Origin: a virus
Direction: 5' to 3' (one strand)
Length of the DNA stretch: 8,909 nucleotides
Virus genome (UHGV): UHGV-2009704
The stretch's first letter is position 1. Every line of letters begins with the position of its first letter. Below the pieces are notes generated by a model. That model was given only the letters and a program-made list of their open reading frames with translations, had not been told where the DNA came from and searched no databases. Below, one piece after another: positions 1 to 8,909 of the stretch. The translations under genes and the position numbers were made by a program.

Positions 1-188
1 TAACGTGAAGACTTCATTACCGACAGATTTTCCGGAGAACGTGGTGACGGCAGTTGAAACCAATGTGTTGAGGTTGCACTGTCGCTTAAGCCGAGAATAC
101 GGTATTAAGTAAGATATGGGGTTTGGCCGTTGTTAATGAGCAGGACAATCATGACCGCCAACGACTGGATTCTCCCTTGGTTTATGTT

Positions 189-221
189 GGTGCGCATAAT
201 GTACGACTCGTTATGTTGAAA
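189..221. other. attL: degenerate dif-like site (XerC arm GGTGCGCATAA, 11-nt central region TGTACGACTCG, XerD-like arm TTATGTTGAAA)
   Basis: The first 15 nt are identical to the perfect dif at 8506-8520. The central region is 11 nt instead of 6, and the XerD-like arm matches TTATGTTAAAT at 9 of 11 positions. Confidence 0.7.
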
Positions 222-222
222 A

Positions 223-254
223 GGCCGCTGCGAAAATAGAATCCCGCAGCGGCC
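223..254 (-). terminator. Rho-independent terminator of the minus-strand accessory operon
   Basis: Perfect 10-bp GC-rich stem GGCCGCTGCG / CGCAGCGGCC with a 12-nt loop. On the minus strand it is followed by TTTTCAACATAA, 32 nt past the stop of the 286-990 CDS. Confidence 0.6.
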
Positions 255-285
255 TCTTTAGCATAACGTCATTGTGCGAACCAAT

Positions 286-990
286 TCATAATGCTGCGGG
301 AGCCACGTAATAGACAATCACAAATACAGCTAATGCTCCACCTGCTCTTACCCAGTTTGATATTTTGACTTCTATAAACCCGGGTATAAATGAGACTACC
401 CCAGCAACTGCTGCTGAAAGAATTATTCGAAAGAAAGTGTATTGAAAGTTCGTTGGATTAGGTATAAATATTGCGATTATTATAAAAAGAATAACAAGTA
501 AAATGCCAAAGCTAAATGCCGCTATTCTCTCGTGTGCTTTTGTCAATTTTTCTTTTCCTTTATTGTCAAATCCATATACTGGCATATCTTCATTAACGAA
601 AAGATTCCTTATTTCTTTTGCAGAACGTTTGTCATGGGCTTTTACTATCCTTTGCATTGAAGCAAAAGCAGTGGAGCTTGGTTTAATACTATTATCATTC
701 ATTACCTCTCTATATTTTTTGTAATGAGCTAAGATAAGGTGAAGAACATCAATGCATGTTTCTGCAAGCCATTGATTCCATTGAGTATTATTTAATTCAT
801 CTACTGTTCTGTTATGTGCAGCGCAGTGTTCTAAATAGCCGAAAAAACTGTCTCCACATGAATTCACGGTATCAAAATCACATTTACCAGATAGGTAACA
901 CTCTAATGACTCAGTATATTTTTCATATAAACGCTCAATTTCTTTTTTTTGATTATCAATGATACCGTGAACATCCATATCTGATTTCAC
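286..990 (-). CDS. Hypothetical protein (234 aa) with Cys-rich N-terminal soluble domain and 2-3 C-terminal transmembrane helices; accessory (moron) gene
   Basis: Long ORF from the six-frame track. The C-terminal 70 aa form hydrophobic stretches (IAAFSFGILLVILFIIIAIFIP, FFRIILSAAVAGVVSFIPGFI, ALAVFVIVYYVAPAAL). The start is either GTG at 988-990, overlapping the upstream stop (TAGTG), or ATG at 976-978. A terminator lies downstream. I recognise no homolog. Confidence 0.6.
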   Translation of the reverse strand: MKSDMDVHGIIDNQKKEIERLYEKYTESLECYLSGKCDFDTVNSCGDSFFGYLEHCAAHNRTVDELNNTQWNQWLAETCIDVLHLILAHYKKYREVMNDNSIKPSSTAFASMQRIVKAHDKRSAKEIRNLFVNEDMPVYGFDNKGKEKLTKAHERIAAFSFGILLVILFIIIAIFIPNPTNFQYTFFRIILSAAVAGVVSFIPGFIEVKISNWVRAGGALAVFVIVYYVAPAAL

Positions 991-1265
991 TATCTTTTTT
1001 GTTGAGTGTTATTTGACTGGGATTGAATTTTTGCCAATAGCGAACTTGCTTTCGATGTATTCAATCCATTACAAATCATTCTTGTAATCGGTTTTTTGTA
1101 AATTCGATGAACGATATTTTCAACTTCAGTGATGCTTTCATTGCCACTGAGTTTTTTTATCTCATTGAACATCTCCTCCAATTGTTCATTTGTTGGATGC
1201 CATTTGATTATATCTAATTCTTCCTCTAATGCTTTTTTAAAAAGGAAAACCTGAAAAGATAACAT
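990..1265 (-). CDS. Hypothetical small protein (91 aa) with conserved C-terminal tail GLNTSKASSLLAKIQ
   Basis: ATG at 1263-1265 is preceded by the strong RBS AAGGAAAG. The stop overlaps the start of the 286-990 gene. The C-terminal tail is homologous to that of the upstream small ORF, with synonymous third-position differences. Confidence 0.55.
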   Translation of the reverse strand: MLSFQVFLFKKALEEELDIIKWHPTNEQLEEMFNEIKKLSGNESITEVENIVHRIYKKPITRMICNGLNTSKASSLLAKIQSQSNNTQQKR

Positions 1266-1266
1266 A

Positions 1267-1563
1267 TTACTTTCCTTGTGTTGGTTTAGTAGTGGATTGT
1301 TGAGCTTTTTCTAAAAGCCTTTTTGCTTTAGATGTGTCCAAACCATCTTGGGCAAAGCCTTGTTGCTTATCATTCTGTTTTTGTTCACTTTTTTTTGGCG
1401 TATTCATCAGTATATACTTTGACTCGTTTTGTTTATCTCGATGACTTACTTTTTGTTTAAGTTTTGCACAAACTAGAACGTGCAGTGTTGGTAATACTGC
1501 ACGTTTGTACCATTCGTGGTACTTAATCCTTTTGTTTGGCAGACATGAGATCTTCTGCTGCAT
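1267..1563 (-). CDS. Hypothetical Lys/Gln-rich small protein with conserved C-terminal tail GLDTSKAKRLLEKAQ; start uncertain
   Basis: The ORF ends with TAA at 1267-1269, 1 nt before the next gene's ATG. The C-terminal 20 codons are supported by paralogy with the 990-1265 tail. Alternative starts are TTG 1581, ATG 1563 (overlaps the upstream ORF by about 40 nt) or ATG 1407. Confidence 0.4.
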   Translation of the reverse strand: MQQKISCLPNKRIKYHEWYKRAVLPTLHVLVCAKLKQKVSHRDKQNESKYILMNTPKKSEQKQNDKQQGFAQDGLDTSKAKRLLEKAQQSTTKPTQGK

Positions 1564-1705
1564 CTTTAGAGTAGTTATCAATCAGATAACCTAAAATCTC
1601 TGTCCATGTAATTGTTTTTCCTAGTTTTACACTGGCATTTATAGCCAGTCGTTCTAGTTTCATTTTTCTTTCTTCCGTCACGTTATAAGTCGTGCGCTTT
1701 GCCAT
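1523..1705 (-). CDS. Putative small DNA-binding regulator (60 aa, possible ribbon-helix-helix fold), first gene of the divergent accessory operon
   Basis: Its N-terminus, MAKRTTYNVTEERKMKLERLAIN, has a beta-strand then helix pattern typical of RHH (Arc/CopG-like) proteins. It sits directly next to the divergent control region upstream of gII. The RBS is weak. Confidence 0.45.
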   Translation of the reverse strand: MAKRTTYNVTEERKMKLERLAINASVKLGKTITWTEILGYLIDNYSKDAAEDLMSAKQKD

Positions 1706-1874
1706 TTTTTACGCTCGTTCAATGCAATATTTGAAGTGAGTATACATGCTCATGAACTCATATCATCCAAGCCTCTTGAACTCACTAGCTCACTGATGTA
1801 ATGTTAAAACACTAATGAACTACTGAACTCATGTGTTAGTAAGTCGTCATTTTTGCAATTTTGAGGATTTATTC
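1706..1874. promoter_or_regulatory. Divergent control region between the accessory operon and gII, with repeated TGAACT(C/A) motifs (candidate operators or iterons)
   Basis: TGAACTCA occurs at 1753-1760, 1777-1784 and 1824-1831, and TGAACTAC at 1816-1823. CTCACT is duplicated at 1781-1795. Possible gII promoter: -35 TTGAAC 1776-1781, -10 TAATGT 1799-1804. Possible minus-strand -10: TATACT at 1744-1739. Confidence 0.5.
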
Positions 1875-2927
1875 GTGATCGATTGGCTTACCGGGATTTT
1901 CCCTTGCACACACAAACCGCTTCCGGCGGGGAGTGTTGTCAGCGTTGATGCTGACGGTGCAATTGAGTGGGAAACCGTTAAGCGACTGACTGTTCGCGGC
2001 TCGCATGAAGCAACGATGAAAGTACGATCGATAGGATCTAATGGCGAAGGTAAAGCGACACATTTGTACATTGATGGTAATCCGTCCAAGTTTTTGCAGG
2101 GGCATTCTGTTGTTGGGTCGGATGATATACAAGGGCTCATGTTGACGGTCTATGCCAGGATTTTATCCTTATTGAATATTCCTCATGATTTAGCGTCTTA
2201 TAAAGCTGTTATAGCAGGTCAGTATAAAATTTCACGTGTTGACATTAATTACATGTATTCATTATCTACGCTAGAAAATGTCAGATCATGGCTTTATGCC
2301 GCCGAATTTAAAGCTAAAACACGCCATGGTCGCGCATGTGGGAAAGGCGGTACAGTTTATTTAGGTAAAAACTCCCGTCGATGGAGTCTGAAATTTTATT
2401 CAAAATATGATGAACACGTTTCGGGTAAAAAAGGGCACCAGATAGCCGAAGATTTTGTACGAGCCGGGTTACTGGACTGGACGAAAGATAAATTACGTAT
2501 TGAATTAACATTAAGAACAACTGAGCTTATTGATTTAAATTTAACGCTTGGCGCTAACTGGAATATGAAAACACCACGTCAATTATTCTCTGAATATGTA
2601 GGGAGAATAGAAATGAATCAGAATGCTATTTTAAGTGATGAAAAAATAACGAAACTGCCAAGAAAAATACAGTCAACTTATTTACTTTGGAAACAAGGGG
2701 CTAACATGAAAGAAATGTTACCTCATAACACTTTTTATCGCCATAGAAGAGAATTGCTTTCGTTCGGTATCGATATTAATTTCTATTGTGATTCACCAGA
2801 CTCTAATAACGTTGTTCCGCTAATAAGAACGCTGGAAGCCAAGCCAGTGGAAATCCCCTTATGGATTTATGAGAAAGGTTTTATTTTCGATTACAACCGT
2901 ATTTCGCACGCCAGTAGCTGGCATTAA
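1875..2927 (+). CDS. gII: Replication initiation protein pII (rolling-circle nickase)
   Basis: Recalled similarity to M13 pII: N-terminal MIDWL vs MIDML, KFLQGHSVVG vs KVLQGHNVFG, and C-terminal SNNVVPLIR vs CNNVVPLVR. GTG at 1875 has the RBS GAGGA 7 nt upstream. The track ORF starts at GTG 1833, which has no RBS. Confidence 0.85.
   Translation: MIDWLTGIFPCTHKPLPAGSVVSVDADGAIEWETVKRLTVRGSHEATMKVRSIGSNGEGKATHLYIDGNPSKFLQGHSVVGSDDIQGLMLTVYARILSLLNIPHDLASYKAVIAGQYKISRVDINYMYSLSTLENVRSWLYAAEFKAKTRHGRACGKGGTVYLGKNSRRWSLKFYSKYDEHVSGKKGHQIAEDFVRAGLLDWTKDKLRIELTLRTTELIDLNLTLGANWNMKTPRQLFSEYVGRIEMNQNAILSDEKITKLPRKIQSTYLLWKQGANMKEMLPHNTFYRHRRELLSFGIDINFYCDSPDSNNVVPLIRTLEAKPVEIPLWIYEKGFIFDYNRISHASSWH
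2613..2927 (+). CDS. gX: pX, in-frame internal initiation product of gII (104 aa)
   Basis: Internal ATG at 2613 is preceded by GGGAGAA. Its position and N-terminal MN match the M13 gX start within gII. Called by analogy with Ff. Confidence 0.5.
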   Translation: MNQNAILSDEKITKLPRKIQSTYLLWKQGANMKEMLPHNTFYRHRRELLSFGIDINFYCDSPDSNNVVPLIRTLEAKPVEIPLWIYEKGFIFDYNRISHASSWH

Positions 2928-2938
2928 AGGAAAGTAAT

Positions 2939-3256
2939 ATGTCTAATTATGGTCTTTTCGTTAAGGGTAAAATGTTGGGAGCCCGCCAACGTAATAAAGT
3001 TAATGGTCAGGGCTATTATAATGAAATTGGTATTGGCCTTGAAATACCTGATGGTTTTGGTGGTACAAAGCAGGATCAAATTATTATTCGAGTTTCTCAG
3101 ACTCTCGTTAACGCAGGTCTAATGAACCAGGCGAATGCTTTCATTGGGAAATTAGTTCAAATTCCTGTCTATGTCCGTGCGTGGTCAATGGAGGGTAGGG
3201 AAGGTGTAACTTATAATGTTTCTTCCGATGGTGGCATCGCAGAGATCAAAGGTTAA
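2939..3256 (+). CDS. gV: Putative ssDNA-binding protein pV (105 aa, divergent)
   Basis: Sits at the canonical gV position, immediately after gII, with the strong RBS AAGGAAAG. Sequence resemblance to the Ff gV OB-fold is only weak (GQGYYNEIGIGLEIPDG vs GKPYSLNEQLCYVDLGNEYP). Confidence 0.6.
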   Translation: MSNYGLFVKGKMLGARQRNKVNGQGYYNEIGIGLEIPDGFGGTKQDQIIIRVSQTLVNAGLMNQANAFIGKLVQIPVYVRAWSMEGREGVTYNVSSDGGIAEIKG

Positions 3257-3258
3257 AT

Positions 3259-3345
3259 ATGGACGATGTTATTCAAATTTTGATAGCGTCTGGCATCGTT
3301 ATTTCTTTTGGCCTCGGCGCGATTACTGCGGGGGTCTTTCGTTAA
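3259..3345 (+). CDS. gVII: Minor coat protein pVII (28 aa)
   Basis: Small hydrophobic ORF MDDVIQILIASGIVISFGLGAITAGVFR in the Ff gVII position, with RBS AAAGG. Its stop overlaps the gIX start (TAATG). Confidence 0.6.
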   Translation: MDDVIQILIASGIVISFGLGAITAGVFR

Positions 3346-3440
3346 TGTATATCGTTTATTTCTTCGGGGCTTATACCTTTGGTTTTGCCCTTTTCTATGC
3401 GGTCGGTTCATTTAAATCATTTTCTGACCGATTAATGTAA
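3345..3440 (+). CDS. gIX: Minor coat protein pIX (31 aa)
   Basis: MYIVYFFGAYTFGFALFYAVGSFKSFSDRLM resembles M13 pIX, including the C-terminal RLM motif. It is translationally coupled to gVII. Confidence 0.6.
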   Translation: MYIVYFFGAYTFGFALFYAVGSFKSFSDRLM

Positions 3441-3459
3441 CCTTAATGGAGTTATTCCT

Positions 3460-3702
3460 ATGAAAATTCTGTCTACTGTTAAATATAAAGTTGCTCTGGC
3501 TTCAACTGCGCTTTTTGTTTCTGCAAGTTCTTTTGCGGCTGAAGGCGCTACAGGTGGTACTGATTATGCAGGTCAGGCAATGGATGCTTTGTTGACTCAG
3601 GCAAATGATCTCATTGGTAAAGTATGGCCTGTTGTTGTGGCTGTGGTTGGCGCTGGGCTTGCCATTCGTATTTTCAAAAAATTCTCTTCAAAAGCGGTTT
3701 GA
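3460..3702 (+). CDS. gVIII: Major coat protein pVIII precursor (80 aa)
   Basis: Signal peptide ending SSFA, then mature AEGATGG...[25 protein letters not shown]. This closely matches the IKe/Ff major coat protein, including the C-terminal basic [11 protein letters not shown] is GGAG. Confidence 0.9.
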
Positions 3703-3711
3703 ATTTCACTC

Positions 3712-3735
3712 AGGGGCACTCGTTGCCCCTTTATT
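3712..3735 (+). terminator. Rho-independent terminator downstream of gVIII
   Basis: 7-bp stem AGGGGCA / TGCCCCT with a 5-nt loop, followed by TTATT. This is the same position as the strong terminator after gene VIII in Ff phages. Confidence 0.7.
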
Positions 3736-3748
3736 AAAGCGGGTTACT

Positions 3749-5029
3749 ATGAAAAGGAAAATATTAATTCTTTCCGCTGTCCTCATTTCTCCTTTTTCAC
3801 ATGCTGAGTCATGGGAAAGCATTACTAAATCCACTTATCAAAGCTCTGCCTACGCTGAAAGTAAGCAAATAACCAATCAGGATGGCTCTAAGTCAACGGT
3901 TTACTATATTGATGCTGCTATGCAGGCCTCCGCTTGTCAGGGTGCTAAATCCAGTGCTCAGAGTGTATTTACTCAGGTTAAACCAACTTATGAGGGTATC
4001 TGGCCTGATTCTGAATTCCGTCTTGTTTTTACTGGTGATTGTACTTACAGCGATTCACCAGGGCAGAAGGATAAATATTGGTCTTTAACGGCTTATATTG
4101 TTGGTGATATTCAGCGTTCTGTTCCTGATGAAAAACCTACTGACCCGACACCAGAAGAAATTTGTGAAGCGAAGCCGCCAGAAGAAGGTGTATTTAATAA
4201 TGTTGATTCATATGATGGTGGTCGTTATATCTACTATAACGGCTGTGAATATGAGGCTACTGGTGTCATTGTTTGTCAGGGTGATGGTACTGTTTGCGCT
4301 GCAACATGGAAGCCTACAGGTACTGTAGCTGACCCCTCTGATAAACCCTCAACCCCCCAAAATGGTGGTGGTGAGTCTGGCGGTGGTGAGTCTGGCGGTG
4401 GTGAGTCCGGTGGCGGTAGTTCTGGCGGTGGTGAGTCCGGTGGCGGTAGTTCTGGCGGTGGTGAGTCCGGTGGCGGTAGTTCTGGCGGTGGCTTTAGTGG
4501 TTCCAGTCTTTCTAAAGGTGATATTCAGTCTGCTATCGAAGGTGCTTCACCCAAAATAGCCAGCGATATTCATGATAAATTAACGGAGAAAGACACTTCA
4601 TCAGATGATAAAAAAAATGCCGATGAACAAACTAGGAATAATATAAATCGTCTTGACGATTCCATTAACAATCTTACGCGGGGGGCTGGCCGTTTTGCTG
4701 ACCCTTCAGGTGGTGATTCTCGTTATGGAAAGGGCGACTCTGAATTAGATGGCGCTTCTACTTTGGCTGATTCTGAATTGGGAATTGAAAAGGATTCTCA
4801 CGGTGCTTTATGGGAAGCATTTTTAAATAAAGGTGCTATGCTGCCTAATTTACCCAATGGTAACGGCTGCTCTGATTTTATTATTTTTCCCGGAGAGGTT
4901 TATCAGATTGATATTGGTTGCGATAAATTACTGACTATTAAAGATGTTCTTTCATGGGTTTTTTATTGCCTTACGTTCTGGTATGTCTTTACTTCTTTAA
5001 CTTCATTGCTTCGCAAAGGGGGTGAGTGA
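3749..5029 (+). CDS. gIII: Minor coat / host-attachment protein pIII (426 aa)
   Basis: Signal peptide [19 protein letters not shown], a Gly-rich linker of ([10 protein letters not shown]) repeats, and a C-terminal membrane anchor IGCDKLL...[17 protein letters not shown] resembling IKe/Ff pIII. Its stop overlaps the gVI start. Confidence 0.9.
4367..4486 (+). repeat. Tandem coding repeats in the gIII glycine-rich linker
   Basis: Two 15-bp units GGTGGTGAGTCTGGC (4367-4396) are followed by three perfect 30-bp units GGTGGTGAGTCCGGTGGCGGTAGTTCTGGC (4397-4426, 4427-4456, 4457-4486). Confidence 0.9.
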
Positions 5030-5370
5030 TGCCTTTATTATTAGGTATTCCTGCATTGTTGCGTTTTCTTATTGGTCTTGTTCCTTTGTTTATTGGCTAT
5101 GTGGCGAGTTTTTTAGCTCGACTTGCTACCAGAACAGGATTAATCGCCTTTGCATTGGTCGCATTAATTACAACAACTGTTACGCTTTTAATGCAGTACC
5201 TTGCTGAGGTCATGTATAACGGTTTACCTGCTGATTTCTCCCATTTAATGGCGTCTGTATTGCCTGACCATTTTCAGGCGTGTGTTAACGTTATTATGGT
5301 TACTCGTATCAGTGTTTTTGTTTTCGATTTAAAACAAAAATTTCTTGATTATGCAAACAGGGTGATTTAA
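5029..5370 (+). CDS. gVI: Minor coat protein pVI (113 aa)
   Basis: [24 protein letters not shown] resembles M13 pVI (MPVLLGIPLLLRFLGFLLV). The ATG overlaps the gIII stop, and the stop abuts the gI ATG. Confidence 0.85.
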   Translation: MPLLLGIPALLRFLIGLVPLFIGYVASFLARLATRTGLIAFALVALITTTVTLLMQYLAEVMYNGLPADFSHLMASVLPDHFQACVNVIMVTRISVFVFDLKQKFLDYANRVI

Positions 5371-6465
5371 ATGGCGGTTCATGTAGTAACAGGCAAATTA
5401 GGCTCAGGCAAGACACTTGTTAGTGTTTCCAGAATACAGGAAAGACTTGCTAAGGGTTGTCCTGTTGCCACTAATCTTGATCTTAAATTGCATAATATGC
5501 CTATGGTTGGGCGTTATGCGAAAAAAACGCGCGTTATTCGCATTCCTGACAAGCCTTCATTAAATGATTTACTTGCTATTGGTATTGGGAATACATCTTA
5601 CGATGAATCCCGTAATGGCCTCCTTGTACTTGATGAATGTGGTACTTGGTTTAATTCCCGCTCATGGGGTGATAAAGACAGACAACCTGTTATTGACTGG
5701 TTTTTACATGCCAGAAAATTAGGCTGGGATATTATATTTTTGATTCAGGATATTTCGATAATGGATAAGCAAGCTCGTCTGGCGCTTGCTGAGCATGTTG
5801 TTTATTGTCGCCGTTCAGATAAATTAAACATTCCTTTTGTTGGCTCCATTATGAATTTGGTTTCAGGGGCGCGATTTTCTTTACCAAAGGTACACTTTGG
5901 CATTGTCAAATATGGTGATAACGTTAATTCAATTACTGTTGATAAATGGATATACACCGGAAAATCATTATATTCCGCCTACAATACAAAACAGGTTTTT
6001 ACTGATAACTATCCGCATGGTGCTTATTCGCTTTTGCCACCATTTATCACGCACGGTCAATTTTCTGTTCACAGAGGATTTAATTATTATATGCGCCTCA
6101 CGAAAATTTATTTTCGCAAATCGAACCGTCTTATATTAATGCTTTCTTTTTTGGCGCTGGGGCTTGCGCTTGGTTTCTGGCTCCAGTCTGGAAAGAATGT
6201 TGATGAAATCTCCGCTATTAAATCTGCTTATGCTGAACAGGCGAGGGCGGTAACGCCTGATTCGTCCAGTGACTTACCCCGACTTTCTATTAATTCTTTT
6301 TCACAACTTGGCTTTGACGTTTCCGTTACGTTTGTTGATGCAAAAGGTACGAAATATCAGTATTTTGATTTGATTAAAGATGGTTATTCCGTTGATATTA
6401 AAGATGCCTGTCGTGTTGTTATTAGAAAAGGCCGTTATTTACAGACTGTTATCTGTCAGGAGTAA
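5371..6465 (+). CDS. gI: Assembly protein pI (Zot-like P-loop ATPase, 364 aa)
   Basis: MAVHVVTGKLGSGKTLVSV carries a Walker A motif, and there is extensive recalled similarity to M13 pI (LLVLDECGTWFN, IDWFLHARKLGWDIIFL, ALAEHVVYCRR). A transmembrane segment lies near residue 255. Confidence 0.9.
   Translation: MAVHVVTGKLGSGKTLVSVSRIQERLAKGCPVATNLDLKLHNMPMVGRYAKKTRVIRIPDKPSLNDLLAIGIGNTSYDESRNGLLVLDECGTWFNSRSWGDKDRQPVIDWFLHARKLGWDIIFLIQDISIMDKQARLALAEHVVYCRRSDKLNIPFVGSIMNLVSGARFSLPKVHFGIVKYGDNVNSITVDKWIYTGKSLYSAYNTKQVFTDNYPHGAYSLLPPFITHGQFSVHRGFNYYMRLTKIYFRKSNRLILMLSFLALGLALGFWLQSGKNVDEISAIKSAYAEQARAVTPDSSSDLPRLSINSFSQLGFDVSVTFVDAKGTKYQYFDLIKDGYSVDIKDACRVVIRKGRYLQTVICQE
6091..6465 (+). CDS. 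gXI: pXI, in-frame internal initiation product of gI (124 aa)
   Basis: Internal ATG at 6091 begins MRLTKIYFRK, which aligns with the M13 pXI start MKLTKIYLKK. An AGAGGA lies upstream. Called by analogy with Ff. Confidence 0.5.
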   Translation: MRLTKIYFRKSNRLILMLSFLALGLALGFWLQSGKNVDEISAIKSAYAEQARAVTPDSSSDLPRLSINSFSQLGFDVSVTFVDAKGTKYQYFDLIKDGYSVDIKDACRVVIRKGRYLQTVICQE

Positions 6466-6472
6466 TATTATT

Positions 6473-7738
6473 ATGCGCTCTGTTATTGTTGCTTTTTTAT
6501 TTGCCTGTTCATTCTGCGTTTCTGCTGAAACTGTTAATTTAAACAATTCATCTGTTCGCTCATTTGTTCAGTGGTATTCTTCAAAAACTGGCAAGCCTGT
6601 TATTGTTAATCCTGATATTAAAGGAAACGTAACCGTATTTAATGCTGATGTTAATCCAACAAATATTGATGATTTCTTTAAGTCTGTTCTGAATGCTAAC
6701 GGTTTTGTCATGCTTTCTGGCAATCCTGCGGTAGTCTCTTTGCCGTCTAAATTACCTTCACAGATGGTTTCGGATTCCGATGATTCTGATAACCAGTCTT
6801 ATGATACTTTTCCTTCTGAGCCATCTTACCAGCCAGTACCTGTGGCGCTTACGGTCAGAAATTTTAAGCTGACAAAAGTTAGATCGTCCGATGTTCAGCA
6901 ACTGATTAAAATTTATCTTGATTCTAATGGTGGTGGTAATGTCGTGGATTATCCAGGCAATAACTCGCTGATTGTTTCTGCGCCTGACGAGCTGCTGCCG
7001 GTTCTGTCCGATTTTATCAATTCTGTGGATGTTGCCCGCGATCAGGTTCTCATTCAGTCGCTGATGTTTGAAACCAGCTTGTCTGATGGCGTTGATTTAT
7101 CGTTTGCGGCAGGTTCTGCATCCGGTCATAAGGTTGCGGGGGGCTTTAATACTTCTGCACTGGGTAGCGCTCTTTCTACGGCGGGCGGTTCTTTTGGTAT
7201 TTTTGATGGTAACGTGTTGGCGCTGTCTCTGCGTGCTGTCCAGAGTAATTCACGCTCTAAGGTGATTTCAACGCCGCGTATTCTTACTCAGTCTGGTCAG
7301 ACTGGTTACATTTCCGTAGGTAAGAATGTGCCGTTTATCACCGGAAAGGTAACGGGCGAATCTGCCGGGGTAAATAATCCGTTTCAGACTATCGAGCGTC
7401 ATGATGTTGGCGTTTCTCTCAAGGTAACGCCTGTTGTCATGGGTAACGGGCAACTAGTTCTGACTATCGACACTCGCGCTGATTCAATCAGCAATGATGA
7501 TCAGGCATCCGATATTATTACTAATCAGCGCCAGATTCAGACGACAGTCCAGATTAAGGATGGTCAGACGTTGTTATTGGGGGGGCTTATCGATTCATCG
7601 TTTAGCAATGCTGAGCGTTCAGTTCCAGTTATAAGTAAAATTCCTCTTATAGGCTGGATTTTCAGTAGCAAGGCAGACAGCAATGAACAGCGTATTATGT
7701 ATATTTTGCTTACAGCACATATCATTCGTCCACTTTGA
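6473..7738 (+). CDS. gIV: Outer-membrane secretin pIV (421 aa)
   Basis: Signal peptide MRSVIVAFLFACSFCVSA and strong recalled similarity to M13 pIV (SFAAGS, GGSFGIF, PRILT, VPFITGKVTGESAGVNNPFQTIER, GQTLLLGGL, SKIPLIG). RBS is AGGAG. Confidence 0.9.
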   Translation: MRSVIVAFLFACSFCVSAETVNLNNSSVRSFVQWYSSKTGKPVIVNPDIKGNVTVFNADVNPTNIDDFFKSVLNANGFVMLSGNPAVVSLPSKLPSQMVSDSDDSDNQSYDTFPSEPSYQPVPVALTVRNFKLTKVRSSDVQQLIKIYLDSNGGGNVVDYPGNNSLIVSAPDELLPVLSDFINSVDVARDQVLIQSLMFETSLSDGVDLSFAAGSASGHKVAGGFNTSALGSALSTAGGSFGIFDGNVLALSLRAVQSNSRSKVISTPRILTQSGQTGYISVGKNVPFITGKVTGESAGVNNPFQTIERHDVGVSLKVTPVVMGNGQLVLTIDTRADSISNDDQASDIITNQRQIQTTVQIKDGQTLLLGGLIDSSFSNAERSVPVISKIPLIGWIFSSKADSNEQRIMYILLTAHIIRPL

Positions 7739-7779
7739 TGGATAGCGGGTAGGTGCGTGAGCCCTGCTCGCTATCCATC
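7737..7779. other. Imperfect hairpin immediately after gIV (candidate packaging signal or ssDNA structural element)
   Basis: GATGGATAGCG (7737-7747) pairs with CGCTATCCATC (7769-7779), with further imperfect pairing inward and a 9-nt loop. No T-tract follows, so it is not a canonical intrinsic terminator. Confidence 0.5.
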
Positions 7780-7807
7780 AAATGGACATTATTGATTGGG
7801 GTAACTA

Positions 7808-8116
7808 ATGGATTCTTATGGGATTTTATCTGCTCTGGCAGAACGAACGATTACAGCGGAAGAAGCAAAAACAATGACACTTGCAGCCAGAAGTTCTTCG
7901 GCTCAGGTAAATGAAGCATCACTTGCTCTGTTACTGATTGATAATACTCTGGATGCGATCAAAGCAGCTGCCAGTGAAGGGAAAGGATACACTTTACTTC
8001 CTTCTTATGAGATTTCTTTAAAAGCCATTGATTTAGCAGAAGAATTTTTAAGGAAACAATGCGGCTATGTTATTGATAACCAGAATGGCGTAAGGACGGT
8101 CTATTGGTTTATATGA
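7808..8116 (+). CDS. Hypothetical protein (102 aa), accessory ORF downstream of gIV
   Basis: ORF from the six-frame track with a possible weak RBS (GGGGT). It has no transmembrane segment and I recognise no homolog. It lies inside the prophage between gIV and attR. Confidence 0.5.
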   Translation: MDSYGILSALAERTITAEEAKTMTLAARSSSAQVNEASLALLLIDNTLDAIKAAASEGKGYTLLPSYEISLKAIDLAEEFLRKQCGYVIDNQNGVRTVYWFI

Positions 8117-8117
8117 T

Positions 8118-8162
8118 AACCCCGGACAGTGACAAAACTTGCTTTTGTTAGTGTCCGGGGTT
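8118..8162. other. Long imperfect hairpin (about 20-bp stem) between the two distal accessory ORFs; candidate origin or packaging-signal structure
   Basis: AACCCCGGACAGTGACAAAA (8118-8137) pairs with TTTTGTTAGTGTCCGGGGTT (8143-8162), with one mismatch and one G-T pair, and a 5-nt loop. It starts 2 nt after the stop of the 7808-8116 ORF. A T-run follows at about 8183-8190. Confidence 0.55.
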
Positions 8163-8233
8163 GGCCAAGCCGAACAATTCTGTTTTTTTAGCGTTATTGC
8201 TGATTCGGCGCGGCAGCATTACGAGGAGATAAA

Positions 8234-8467
8234 ATGCAATTTTTCACATCCAGCGATACTGTAATGTTATGTGCGAAGACCTGCGATCGCTGTGGTCGCC
8301 ATGCGAAGACGGTGGTAGATGACATTGAGTTCAATGAGTTTCTGTCTGTTAATCACTTAGCTGGATACGGTTCAATTTTTGGTGACAGTAATCGCTTAAA
8401 ACTGGATTTATGCCAACATTGCCTGAAAGACGTCCTGGGCCAGTGGATTACGGTCTGTGACCAATGA
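8234..8467 (+). CDS. Hypothetical small protein (77 aa) with two CxxC pairs (possible zinc ribbon)
   Basis: Strong RBS GAGGAG 5 nt upstream of the ATG. Cys pairs are CDRC (residues 17-20) and CQHC (60-63). It ends 38 nt before the dif site. Confidence 0.6.
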   Translation: MQFFTSSDTVMLCAKTCDRCGRHAKTVVDDIEFNEFLSVNHLAGYGSIFGDSNRLKLDLCQHCLKDVLGQWITVCDQ

Positions 8468-8505
8468 CGGCACCGGTAACGCCAGTTCCCACCATCCTTA
8501 CCATT

Positions 8506-8533
8506 GGTGCGCATAATGTATATTATGTTAAAT
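8506..8533. other. attR: canonical 28-bp dif site (XerC arm GGTGCGCATAA, central TGTATA, XerD arm TTATGTTAAAT)
   Basis: Exact match to the enterobacterial dif core sequence as I recall it. It is a direct repeat of the left dif-like site. Confidence 0.85.
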
Positions 8534-8909
8534 ATGGTGGGTTTGTTCTTAAGTTCATGTGTTCCGCTCTTTCAGTAGCTTAACTGATGAATCAGTCAGC
8601 AGCTTTTGCCGTGCAAGCTACGCGGCGGTTCGTACCAGATTGGCCACCTCCATCTCCTGGTTCGCTTTCCCCTCCCCCCGGTAAACCTCACCCAACGTTA
8701 ATTAATGATGTCAGTATGTGGGCGCTATCCTTGTATGTAAAATCCACTGACGATTACGCCCATCTGTGAAAAAAAACTCACAATGCCATTCGATGCATCT
8801 CCATACCGAACGAGGCGTTATCGTCTTTATCGCCCCGTAGTGGATATCAGAAAATCAATCAGGGCCTTCACTCTTTTCGTTTTACCCGCGTTTTTGGGGT
8901 AATAGAGAT

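What the first reader, a model, noticed from the sequence alone, without database searches (positions are those of the whole stretch)
286..1705. AT-rich four-gene accessory operon divergent from gII, ending in a membrane protein: candidate undescribed phage-borne system
Ff-type phages normally have only the intergenic region upstream of gII. Here a tightly packed minus-strand operon occupies that space: a putative RHH-like regulator (1523-1705), two small proteins (1267-1563 and 990-1265), and a 234-aa protein with a Cys-rich soluble N-domain and 2-3 C-terminal TM helices (286-990), followed by a strong terminator (223-254). Genes are separated by 1 nt or overlap their stop and start codons. 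The region is visibly more AT-rich than the phage core, with long A/T runs, which suggests a horizontally acquired moron. A regulator plus small proteins plus a membrane-anchored effector resembles superinfection-exclusion, abortive-infection or toxin-antitoxin-like modules, or a virulence moron. dif-integrating filamentous prophages of E. coli K1 and Yersinia pestis are known to carry accessory genes, but I cannot confirm any match from the sequence alone.
Basis: partly seen in the sequence, partly recalled or inferred. Interest (0 to 1): 0.8.

Follow-up and report, generated by a model that had tools for sequence, protein, structure and literature searches.

The report
Swappable defence-like cargo in filamentous prophage
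The AT-rich block next to the integration site of this E. coli filamentous prophage is a swappable three-gene cargo cassette (two small related proteins plus a membrane protein). It belongs to a widespread, unnamed gene system that sits in anti-phage defence islands in other bacteria, so it is most likely a phage-borne defence module rather than part of the phage life cycle.

Summary
The window is a CUS-1/YpfPhi-type prophage integrated at dif next to hipA. The "four-gene operon" is two things. (1) The 60-aa regulator (1523-1705) is a core phage gene, identical in every cargo variant. (2) A ~1.16-kb cassette (~291-1453, 33.5% GC vs 41.2% core) holds three genes: 46 aa (1267-1407), 91 aa (990-1265) and a 230-aa protein (286-978) with a helical N-domain and three TM helices. 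The 98/104-aa ORF3 reading crosses the swap boundary and is not supported. The "terminator" is the tip of the CTXphi-like attP hairpin. Near-identical prophages carry at least four other cargoes in this slot (AbiJ-like, Fic/Doc, ECs_2282 Zn protein, a divergent allele of the same system). The same system (1-4 tandem small paralogues plus the N-domain protein) occurs in a P2-like phage and in chromosomal islands of Pseudomonas, Paraburkholderia and Proteus, next to Gabija, Hachiman, Olokun, PifA and others. The effector half is swappable (3-TM module or lipase-like hydrolase). No Pfam, NCBIfam, PADLOC or PDB match exists. Best reading: an uncharacterised abortive-infection-type defence cassette in an inovirus accessory hotspot. 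Function is inferred, not shown.

The parts
189..216 (+). attL: hybrid dif/attP site GGTGCGCATAATGTACGACTCGTTATGTTG. It has a chromosomal XerC-type arm and a longer central region than dif.
   Evidence: Regex and direct reading. Conserved in all cargo variants. Pairs with 255-282 in the ssDNA fold.
222..253 (.). GC-rich hairpin (GGCCGCTGCG, 12-nt loop, CGCAGCGGCC). It is the tip of the attP fork and could also act as a weak bidirectional terminator.
   Evidence: Not called as a terminator (loop of 12 nt, tail TTTTC). The same hairpin follows the cassette in L011, L031 and L032.
255..282 (-). Second, inverted dif-like site (GGTTCGCACAATGACGTTATGC on the minus strand).
   Evidence: Together with 189-216 it gives a CTXphi-type attP architecture.
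291..1453 (-). Swappable cargo cassette of ~1.16 kb at 33.5% GC.
   Evidence: blastn against prophages with other cargo: homology ends at 284-290 and resumes at 1454-1466. GC. Present in 22 of 5426 E. coli genomes, against 48 with the core.
286..978 (-). 230-aa protein (alternative GTG start at 990 gives 234 aa). It has a cytoplasmic all-helical N-domain (~1-145) and a conserved 3-TM module (~146-230, motif FG..F...IPNPT.FQY..FRI.L..A.AG...IPGF......W.RAGGALAVF).
   Evidence: N-domain pLDDT >90; 2650 cluster representatives at E<=1e-3. No Pfam, NCBIfam, PADLOC or PDB sequence match.
990..1265 (-). 91-aa small protein, the 'long' paralogue. It has the N-terminal W.PT..QL motif and the C-terminal GLNTSKASSLLAKIQ helix.
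   Evidence: family of >=223 clusters, no Pfam domain. The database label 'S-(hydroxymethyl)glutathione dehydrogenase' is evidently erroneous.
1267..1407 (-). 46-aa small protein, the 'short' paralogue. It consists essentially of the shared C-terminal motif FAQDGLDTSKAKRLLEKAQ.
   Evidence: RefSeq annotation. Conserved in Dickeya, Proteus, Cedecea and L031. 14 synonymous against 8 non-synonymous codon changes. Seen on 959 contigs.
1454..1522 (-). Conserved core flank downstream of the regulator, with two RNA hairpins (main arms at 1477-1489 and 1493-1505). It is a candidate terminator or attenuator and marks the right recombination boundary.
   Evidence: -22.7 kcal/mol, z = -4.1.
1523..1705 (-). 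60-aa core regulator (WP_001335098.1), the probable homologue of YPO2273. It is not part of the cargo.
   Evidence: The identical protein precedes at least 5 different cargoes. The literature calls YPO2273 RstR-like, untested (PMC4266046). No Pfam or PDB hit.
1706..1832 (.). Divergent promoter region between the regulator and gII, with 3-4 direct repeats of TGAGTTCA (minus strand) as candidate operators.
   Evidence: 1749-1760, 1773-1784, 1812-1831. Promoter-like site at 1766-1739.
8506..8533 (+). Perfect E. coli dif (GGTGCGCATAATGTATATTATGTTAAAT), the right end of the prophage.

Best explanation
Window 291-1453 is a horizontally exchanged cargo cassette. It sits in the accessory-gene hotspot of a CUS-1/YpfPhi-type dif-integrating filamentous prophage, between the phage attP and the phage's own 60-aa regulator.

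The cassette encodes a conserved, unnamed multi-gene system. One or more small paralogous proteins (here 46 aa and 91 aa) share a C-terminal amphipathic helix, G(L/I/V)D(N/T)S(D/K)..LL. They are followed by a protein whose cytoplasmic helical N-domain is joined to a swappable effector, here a 3-TM membrane module.

Proposed mechanism (inferred):
1. The small proteins bind the N-domain through their shared helix and keep the effector silent, or they act as the sensor.
2. Infection by another phage perturbs this complex.
3. The 3-TM module then compromises the inner membrane, aborting the infection.
4. This protects the lysogen population and, indirectly, the prophage.

Shown here: cassette boundaries and swapping; conservation of the gene set; co-variation of the small proteins with the N-domain; effector modularity; defence-island context.
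Inferred: protein-protein binding, membrane toxicity, the trigger, and the anti-phage phenotype.
For: (1) Hotspot behaviour. Identical flanks and an identical regulator accompany unrelated cargoes: this cassette; 140 aa + ECs_2282 Zn protein + 159 aa; Fic/Doc; 140 aa + AbiJ_NTD4/DUF7014; and a 37%-identical second allele of the same system on a 98-100% identical phage core.
(2) The same pair (85 aa + 233 aa; E 8e-5 and 7e-34) occupies the slot between the tail-fibre-assembly and sheath genes of a P2-like phage.
(3) In 24 further loci the membrane gene is preceded by 1-4 tandem small paralogues with the same motifs.
(4) Independent chromosomal copies lie next to known defence systems:
- AbiTii, gop-beta-cII and Gabija (L018-20)
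- Olokun OloA (L014)
- PifA (L021)
- Hachiman HamB (L023)
- PDC-S73/nSTAND3 (L004)
.
(5) Modularity typical of conflict systems. The N-domain also occurs with a 1-TM lipase-like alpha/beta-hydrolase, and those genes too have the small paralogues upstream. The 3-TM module occurs in >1500 cluster representatives with other partners, for example CHAT protease and DUF4019.
(6) Some small paralogues are fused in tandem, which suggests they work as a pair.
(7) The AT-rich composition fits horizontal acquisition.
(8) Precedent: Vibrio filamentous prophages have a border-proximal, regulator-flanked accessory hotspot enriched in defence and TA systems (PMC11630473), and Pf phages carry the KKP defence module (PMC11341870).
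Against: - There is no experimental evidence of phage protection, toxicity or protein interaction.
- No system protein matches any PADLOC, Pfam or NCBIfam model, so the defence call rests on context alone.
- Only about 5 of ~12 independent chromosomal loci have a recognisable defence neighbour. Three Pseudomonas loci are one island and count once.
- The structure of the 91-aa protein is low-confidence (pLDDT 61.6), and a complex prediction could not be run.
- Transcription of the cassette in the lysogen is untested.
Confidence: 0.55

Rival explanations
1. Toxin-antitoxin or addiction module. The membrane protein is a toxin, the small proteins are labile antitoxins, and the main role is to stabilise the unstable episomal or tandem prophage (post-segregational killing) rather than to stop other phages.
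For: The gene order (small genes first, membrane protein last) resembles TA operons. A Fic/Doc 'death-on-curing' toxin occupies the same slot in other prophages. YpfPhi is reported to be unstable as an episome (PMC4266046). Pf phages carry the PfiAT TA module (cited in PMC11630473).
Against: Many copies are chromosomal, in defence islands without any mobile replicon to stabilise. One to four paralogous 'antitoxins' per toxin is atypical. The effector swap to a lipase-like hydrolase is more typical of defence systems. TA and abortive-infection roles are not mutually exclusive.
Confidence: 0.17
2. Superinfection exclusion aimed specifically at filamentous phages. The membrane protein interferes with TolQRA- or pilus-dependent entry of related inoviruses, giving the resident phage exclusive occupancy.
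For: It is an inner-membrane protein encoded next to the immunity-type regulator. Resident YpfPhi gives partial protection against superinfection (PMC4266046). Tandem prophages with different cargoes coexist.
Against: The same system occurs in a tailed P2-like phage and in chromosomal islands of bacteria without adjacent inoviruses. Variants have a hydrolase effector instead of the 3-TM module. Half of the near-identical prophages lack it.
Confidence: 0.1
3. Host-directed virulence or fitness factor of ExPEC and Yersinia, i.e. a classic lysogenic-conversion moron.
For: CUS-1 and YpfPhi are epidemiologically and experimentally linked to modest gains in in-vivo fitness (PMC4266046). Carriers here are mostly human ExPEC isolates.
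Against: Homologous systems are found in Methylobacter, Paraburkholderia, soil Pseudomonas and MAGs from Acidobacteria and Actinomycetes. No secretion signal or eukaryote-directed domain is present. The cargo is absent from about half of the prophages, including the O18:K1-type UM146 copy.
Confidence: 0.05
4. Phage life-cycle function: regulation, replication control or Xer-mediated integration helper.
For: It is adjacent to attP and to the regulator. In Enterobacterales the cassette is always directly followed by an attP-like site.
Against: It is replaced by unrelated genes in 98-100% identical phages that are otherwise intact. Non-enterobacterial copies have no attP. No DNA-binding or recombinase-like domain is detected.
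Confidence: 0.05

Closest known systems
Variable attL-adjacent accessory ORFs of YpfPhi (YPO2271/YPO2272) and CUS-1 (orf1/orf1a)
   Same: Same phage group, the same slot between attL and the regulator (YPO2273 homologue), and the same minus-strand orientation. These ORFs are described as unrelated between phages and of unknown function (PMC4266046, PMC7307601).
   Different: I could not establish whether this window's cargo equals either published pair. At least five cargo types exist. The literature did not recognise the slot as a multi-allelic hotspot, and did not link any cargo to a wider gene system or to defence islands.
Accessory-gene hotspot of Vibrio filamentous and tailless prophages (PMC11630473)
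   Same: A border-proximal variable locus, often flanked by a transcriptional regulator, in dif-integrated prophages. It is enriched in defence and TA systems and is thought to be exchanged by recombination between identical flanks.
   Different: A different host and phage lineage. The cargo here is not recognised by defence-finding models.
Pf (Pseudomonas inovirus) accessory modules KKP and PfiAT (PMC11341870, PMC12328805)
   Same: Inovirus-borne accessory modules near the regulatory region that affect defence against other phages and/or prophage maintenance.
   Different: The proteins are unrelated (kinase/phosphatase and a classic TA pair). Neither has a membrane effector or tandem small paralogues.
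P2-like phage accessory and defence loci (old/tin hotspot; tail-gene accessory slot) (PMC9122126, PMC13586616)
   Same: A homologous 85-aa + 233-aa pair sits between the tail-fibre-assembly and sheath genes of a P2-like phage. From my own knowledge this is the Z/fun position. PMC13586616 reports a defence hotspot within the P2 tail genes.
   Different: The P2 copy lacks the short 46-aa gene and any attP. This pair is not among the systems named or tested in those papers, as far as I could read them.
Abortive-infection systems with membrane effectors (e.g. the hydrolase + TM and TIR + TM systems of Rousset et al.; CBASS and Pycsar TM effectors)
   Same: The logic is the same: a soluble sensing or regulatory part is coupled to a small multi-TM effector, the effectors are swappable, and the systems sit in defence islands.
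   Different: There is no nucleotide-signalling enzyme and no match to the S-2TMbeta or SLATT Pfam models at E<=1. The regulatory part consists of tandem small paralogues of a novel family.
Juk (JukA/JukB) anti-jumbo-phage system

Membership tests
Inovirus accessory-gene (defence) hotspot | Different gene content between conserved flanks in otherwise near-identical prophages. | tested here: met
   Flanks 187-290 and 1454-3000 are 95-99% identical, while the interior is unrelated in L006, L007 and L009. At least five cargo types were seen.
Inovirus accessory-gene (defence) hotspot | Located near a prophage border and flanked by a regulator gene. | tested here: met
   The cassette lies between attP/attL (189-282) and the 60-aa regulator (1523-1705).
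Inovirus accessory-gene (defence) hotspot | Cargo enriched in defence or TA functions. | tested here: met
   The alternative cargoes are AbiJ_NTD4+DUF7014 (PDC-S32), Fic/Doc (PDC-S23) and ECs_2282 (PDC-S64, E 5e-7).
Known or candidate anti-phage defence systems (PADLOC-DB v2) | A significant match of the system's proteins to a defence-system model. | tested here: not met
   The only hit is a weak Csx27 match (E 0.006) for the membrane protein. The small proteins and the P2 homologues have no hit.
Anti-phage defence system (operational definition) | Recurrent location next to known defence systems in unrelated genomes. | tested here: met
   Neighbours are Gabija, gop-beta-cII and AbiTii; Olokun; PifA; Hachiman; and PDC-S73/nSTAND3, in five independent loci out of about 12. 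No formal background statistics were computed.
Anti-phage defence system (operational definition) | Confers resistance to phage infection when expressed. | not testable with these tools
   This needs plaque or efficiency-of-plating assays with the cloned cassette.
Type II-like toxin-antitoxin module | A toxic protein neutralised by a co-encoded small protein. | not testable with these tools
   Only the gene order (small genes upstream of the membrane protein) is compatible.
CTXphi-type attP / IMEX integration site | Two inverted dif-like XerC/XerD sites that fold into a forked hairpin in the (+) ssDNA. | tested here: met
   The sites lie at 189-216 and 255-282. The ssDNA fold is -30.5 kcal/mol, z = -7.4, with 0 of 200 shuffles folding as well. 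The literature reports the same for YpfPhi (PMC4266046).
CTXphi-type attP / IMEX integration site | XerCD-dependent integration. | not testable with these tools
   Only the location at dif, next to hipA and with a perfect dif at 8506-8533, is shown.
   The stem is present, but the loop is 12 nt and the tail is TTTTC. The scan did not call it. A weak terminator function cannot be excluded.
Ribbon-helix-helix regulator (60-aa protein) | Detectable RHH or MetJ/Arc-type domain. | tested here: inconclusive
   There is no Pfam, NCBIfam or PDB sequence hit. The sequence pattern (basic N-terminal strand, then two helices with a G-K-T turn) and the direct repeats in the promoter are compatible. The literature calls YPO2273 RstR-like (PMC4266046).
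Juk system | A JukA (YaaW) sensor encoded with the effector. | tested here: not met
   No such gene is in the cassette, and there is no sequence similarity to JukB.

The most novel reading that the evidence does not exclude
The cassette represents a new family of anti-phage systems. In it, tandem small paralogues with a shared C-terminal helix gate a modular effector protein (3-TM pore-like module or lipase-like hydrolase). In Enterobacterales the cassette plus its own attP-like site also forms a minimal XerCD-mobilised element (a mini-IMEX), able to sit at dif alone (Proteus, Cedecea) or to be captured by different filamentous phages. This would be a new route by which defence genes move between phages through the chromosome dimer-resolution site.
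Probability: 0.2. Interest if true: 0.75.

Novelty: new member of a known kind. Interest (0 to 1): 0.55.

Why it matters
The function of the accessory ORFs at the ends of CUS-1/YpfPhi has been an explicit open question for the plague and ExPEC K1 prophages. These analyses recast the attL-side ORFs as alleles of a defence-type hotspot rather than candidate virulence genes, and they give a concrete, testable system.

The cargo itself belongs to a widespread gene system: about 90 full-length cluster representatives below E 1e-30, and more than 1500 proteins sharing its 3-TM module. The defence and family databases queried here (PADLOC v2, Pfam, NCBIfam) do not cover it, so confirming it would add a new defence family and a new membrane-effector module.

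The strict attP adjacency in Enterobacterales also suggests how small dif-integrating elements may shuttle such cargo.

Tried and rejected
- **Family scans.** Pfam, NCBIfam and PADLOC scans of all four proteins gave no significant family. PHROGs gave only 'unknown function' families.
- **AFDB Foldseek.** The library was unavailable.
- **91-aa structure.** The AF2 model was too low in confidence (pLDDT 61.6) to fold-search.
- **PDB profile searches.** Searches with the small-protein family and with the regulator gave nothing meaningful.
- **Rfam.** No RNA family was found in the window.
- **98/104-aa ORF3.** Rejected because this reading crosses the swap boundary.
- **Rho-independent terminator.** Rejected as the primary reading of 223-254 in favour of the attP fork.
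- **P2 gpA-gpQ hotspot.** I first assumed the P2 homologue sat in the main Rousset hotspot. The paper places that hotspot between gpA and gpQ, so the P2 copy is in the tail-gene accessory slot instead.
- **Match to published cargo.** I could not determine whether the window's cargo equals YPO2271/2272 or orf1/orf1a. The Gonzalez 2002 paper is not held, and no Y. pestis record was reachable.
- **Accession searches.** Literature searches with the protein accessions found nothing.
Full report
**What the window is.** The window is a dif-integrated filamentous prophage of the CUS-1/YpfPhi group.
- Bases 1-112 are the 3' end of hipA.
- A hybrid dif-like site lies at 189-216, and a perfect dif lies at 8506-8533.
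- Between them lie gII (Phage_CRI/G2P), gV, gVII, gVIII, gIII, gVI, gI (Zot) and gIV, as annotated in E. coli strain 16843.
- 44 of 5426 complete E. coli genomes carry at least 80% of the window at 98.6-99.9% identity.

**Checking the observation.** The four minus-strand ORFs exist, and each hits a PHROG of unknown function almost end to end (E 1e-34 to 1e-144). The block is AT-rich: 33.5% GC for 291-1453 against 41.2% for the core, and no core window of equal length falls below 37.1%. The last protein has three hydrophobic segments behind a soluble N-domain. Several details need correction.
- *Start of the membrane gene.* Homologues and RefSeq start it at ATG 978 (230 aa).
- *ORF3.* The 98/104-aa reading runs across the point where homology to prophages with other cargo resumes (1454-1466). 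Only the 46-aa gene (1267-1407) lies inside the cassette. That short gene is annotated in RefSeq and is conserved in Dickeya, Proteus, Cedecea and a viral contig. Against Dickeya it shows 14 synonymous and 8 non-synonymous codon differences.
- *The 'terminator'.* The hairpin at 223-254 has a 12-nt loop and only a TTTTC tail, and the terminator scan did not call it. It is flanked by two inverted dif-like sites (189-216 and 255-282). As single-stranded DNA the whole 185-290 stretch folds into a forked hairpin of -30.5 kcal/mol (z = -7.4; no shuffle folds as well). This is the CTXphi-type attP architecture that the literature infers for YpfPhi (PMC4266046).
- *'Cys-rich'.* This does not hold: one of five cysteines is conserved.

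**Regulator versus cargo.** In strain 16843 a second, tandem prophage copy carries the identical 60-aa protein (WP_001335098.1) followed by a different gene set. The regulator plus gII segment occurs in 48 genomes, while this cassette occurs in only 22 (37 places, all at least 99% identical). The other cargoes sampled are:
- 140 aa + ECs_2282 zinc-binding protein + 159 aa (UM146);
- a Fic/Doc 'death-on-curing' protein (KFu015, SCU-118);
- 140 aa + a protein with AbiJ_NTD4 and DUF7014 domains (Res13);
- on a viral contig whose core is 98-100% identical to the window, a 37%-identical second allele of the same system.

The shared flanks are 187-290 (the attP region) and 1454 onwards. The 60-aa gene is therefore a constant core gene, and ~291-1453 is a swappable cassette. 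Two RNA hairpins (1477-1505 and a neighbour; -22.7 kcal/mol, z = -4.1) lie between the regulator's stop and the cassette, so a single four-gene transcript is not established. The divergent promoter region holds 3-4 TGAGTTCA direct repeats that could be operators. I could not confirm an RHH fold for the regulator.

**A conserved multi-gene system.** A P2-like phage carries an 85-aa + 233-aa pair homologous to the 91-aa + 230-aa pair, between its tail-fibre-assembly and sheath genes. In Dickeya, Proteus, a metagenome contig and 24 further loci, the membrane gene is directly preceded by one to four tandem small ORFs. These loci include Cedecea, seven Pseudomonas species, Paraburkholderia, Methylobacter, Parazoarcus, MAGs from Acidobacteria and Actinomycetes, and five viral contigs. 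The small ORFs form one family: the proline in W.P(T/S)..QL is invariant, and the C-terminal helix G(L/I/V)D(N/T)S(D/K)..LL is near-invariant. The family has at least 223 clusters, no Pfam domain and no name apart from a propagated, evidently wrong 'S-(hydroxymethyl)glutathione dehydrogenase' label. The enterobacterial form is a short (46-55 aa, essentially motif-only) plus a long (88-92 aa) paralogue. A few relatives are tandem fusions of two copies.

I tested one prediction. If the small proteins act through the N-domain, the hydrolase-effector variants should also have them. Both variants examined do (87 aa; 87 + 81 aa, each with the DNSDL motif).

**Context.** In P. salmasensis and two related Pseudomonas genomes the system lies between AbiTii, a gop-beta-cII-type beta/cII pair and Gabija. 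In Paraburkholderia it is followed by Olokun OloA, in P. frederiksbergensis it is preceded by PifA, and in P. sediminis it lies next to Hachiman HamB. In Proteus it lies beside a full-length PDC-S73/nSTAND3 protein. That gives five independent defence neighbourhoods among roughly a dozen independent chromosomal loci. I did not compute a formal background rate. Three further pieces of evidence point the same way: the defence/Abi-like nature of the other cargoes in the same slot, the recurrence of the system in accessory slots of two unrelated temperate phage types, and the swappable effector. Together they make an abortive-infection-type defence role the best-supported reading. None of the system's proteins matches PADLOC v2, Pfam or NCBIfam, so it is not a member of any catalogued system.

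**Mechanism (inferred).** Topology follows from the hydropathy profile and the positive-inside rule: a cytoplasmic N-domain, TM1, a short PNPT periplasmic loop, TM2, a short cytoplasmic beta-hairpin loop containing K and R, then TM3. I propose that the small paralogues, probably as a pair, dock their shared amphipathic C-terminal helix on the N-domain and hold the effector off, or act as the sensor. A phage cue would release or rearrange them, and the 3-TM module would then damage the membrane. Only the genetic architecture, co-variation and modularity are shown. Binding, toxicity and the trigger are not.

**Rivals.**
- An addiction/TA role. It is compatible with the Doc cargo and with YpfPhi's instability, and overlaps with the abortive-infection reading.
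- Inovirus-specific superinfection exclusion.
- A virulence factor. This is disfavoured by the environmental distribution.
- A life-cycle function. This is disfavoured by free replacement of the cassette in near-identical phages.

**Mobility.** In every enterobacterial locus the membrane gene's stop is followed within about 5-15 nt by a dif-like arm and a GC hairpin, in two different attP types. In Dickeya the cassette with its own attP-like site lies outside the resident prophage's attP. In Proteus and Cedecea (and in L017, where the dif-like arms are degenerate) no inovirus core gene lies within 6 kb. The cassette plus attP may therefore be a minimal dif-integrating unit, or a remnant. The Pseudomonas and Paraburkholderia copies have no such site.

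**Comparison with the literature.** The variable attL-side accessory ORFs of CUS-1/YpfPhi are documented as being of unknown function and with no homologues (PMC4266046, PMC7307601). Vibrio filamentous prophages are reported to have a border-proximal, regulator-flanked accessory hotspot enriched in defence and TA systems (PMC11630473), and Pf phages carry KKP (PMC11341870). The kind of feature is thus known. What is new here:
- the slot in this phage group is recognised as multi-allelic;
- this cargo is linked to a widespread unnamed system found in defence islands;
- the gene model is corrected.

**Verdict.** The feature is real, and its anatomy is partly corrected. It is a new member of a known kind (defence-type cargo in an inovirus hotspot). 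Its function is not yet demonstrated. Interest is moderate.

Noticed in passing
window 7808-8116 and 8234-8467 (+ strand): Two further accessory ORFs (102 aa and 77 aa) lie between gIV and dif, at the positions where the literature places YPO2280a/YPO2281. They hit only PHROGs of unknown function (4115, 5435) and have no PADLOC hit. The 77-aa protein has CxxC...CxxC zinc-ribbon-like motifs.
   Followed up: partly
L001 (E. coli 16843) 4001-16522; compare window 1-8533: Two tandem prophage copies with near-identical cores but different attL-side cargo sit side by side at dif. The junction repeats the 187-290 attP region. The cassette occurs at up to 3 places per genome and the core at up to 15, which points to active tandem integration and recombination.
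   Followed up: partly
L003 (Dickeya zeae) 7113-7205 and 8700-8820; L004 (Proteus) 8702-8815: A second type of attP-like structure (GATTCGCACAATG ... hairpin ... CATTATACGAACC) directly follows the cassette. In Dickeya it is additional to the resident prophage's own attP.
   Followed up: partly
L004 (Proteus mirabilis) 5490-6617 and 9245-10372: Two 375-aa ORFs with no Pfam or PADLOC hit flank the cassette on both sides. They could be a duplication or part of a larger mobile unit. I did not compare them with each other.
   Followed up: no
L004 7480-7530 (upstream of the Proteus short ORF): A direct repeat CCCCCGTAGTAC x2 is followed by a GC hairpin and a T-run, immediately upstream of the unannotated 50-aa small ORF.
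   Followed up: no
window 990-1265; proteins P0195, P0199, P0200: The 91-aa protein is labelled 'S-(hydroxymethyl)glutathione dehydrogenase' in several NCBI and UniRef records. This label is implausible for a 91-aa protein with no dehydrogenase domain and looks like a propagated annotation error.
   Followed up: partly
L006, L009 2990-3412; L032 5155-5577; L003 6691-7107: A ~140-aa ORF directly downstream of the regulator is shared by cargo types B and D and by the divergent-allele contig, but is absent from this window and from the Doc type. The hotspot therefore has sub-structure. Whether the Dickeya 138-aa ORF is related was not tested.
   Followed up: no
window 4350-4480 (gIII): A glycine-rich [10 protein letters not shown] repeat tract in the gIII attachment protein explains the local GC peak (0.55). 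Matches to other genomes break into pieces here, and gIII length varies between prophages (1251-1305 nt in annotated copies).
   Followed up: no
L037 vs L038 (Vibrio coralliilyticus) 3300-5900: A protein carrying only the 3-TM module sits next to DUF3800 and, in one strain, a TIR_2 protein that is replaced by an unrelated 324-aa gene in the other. This is another small variable island.
   Followed up: no
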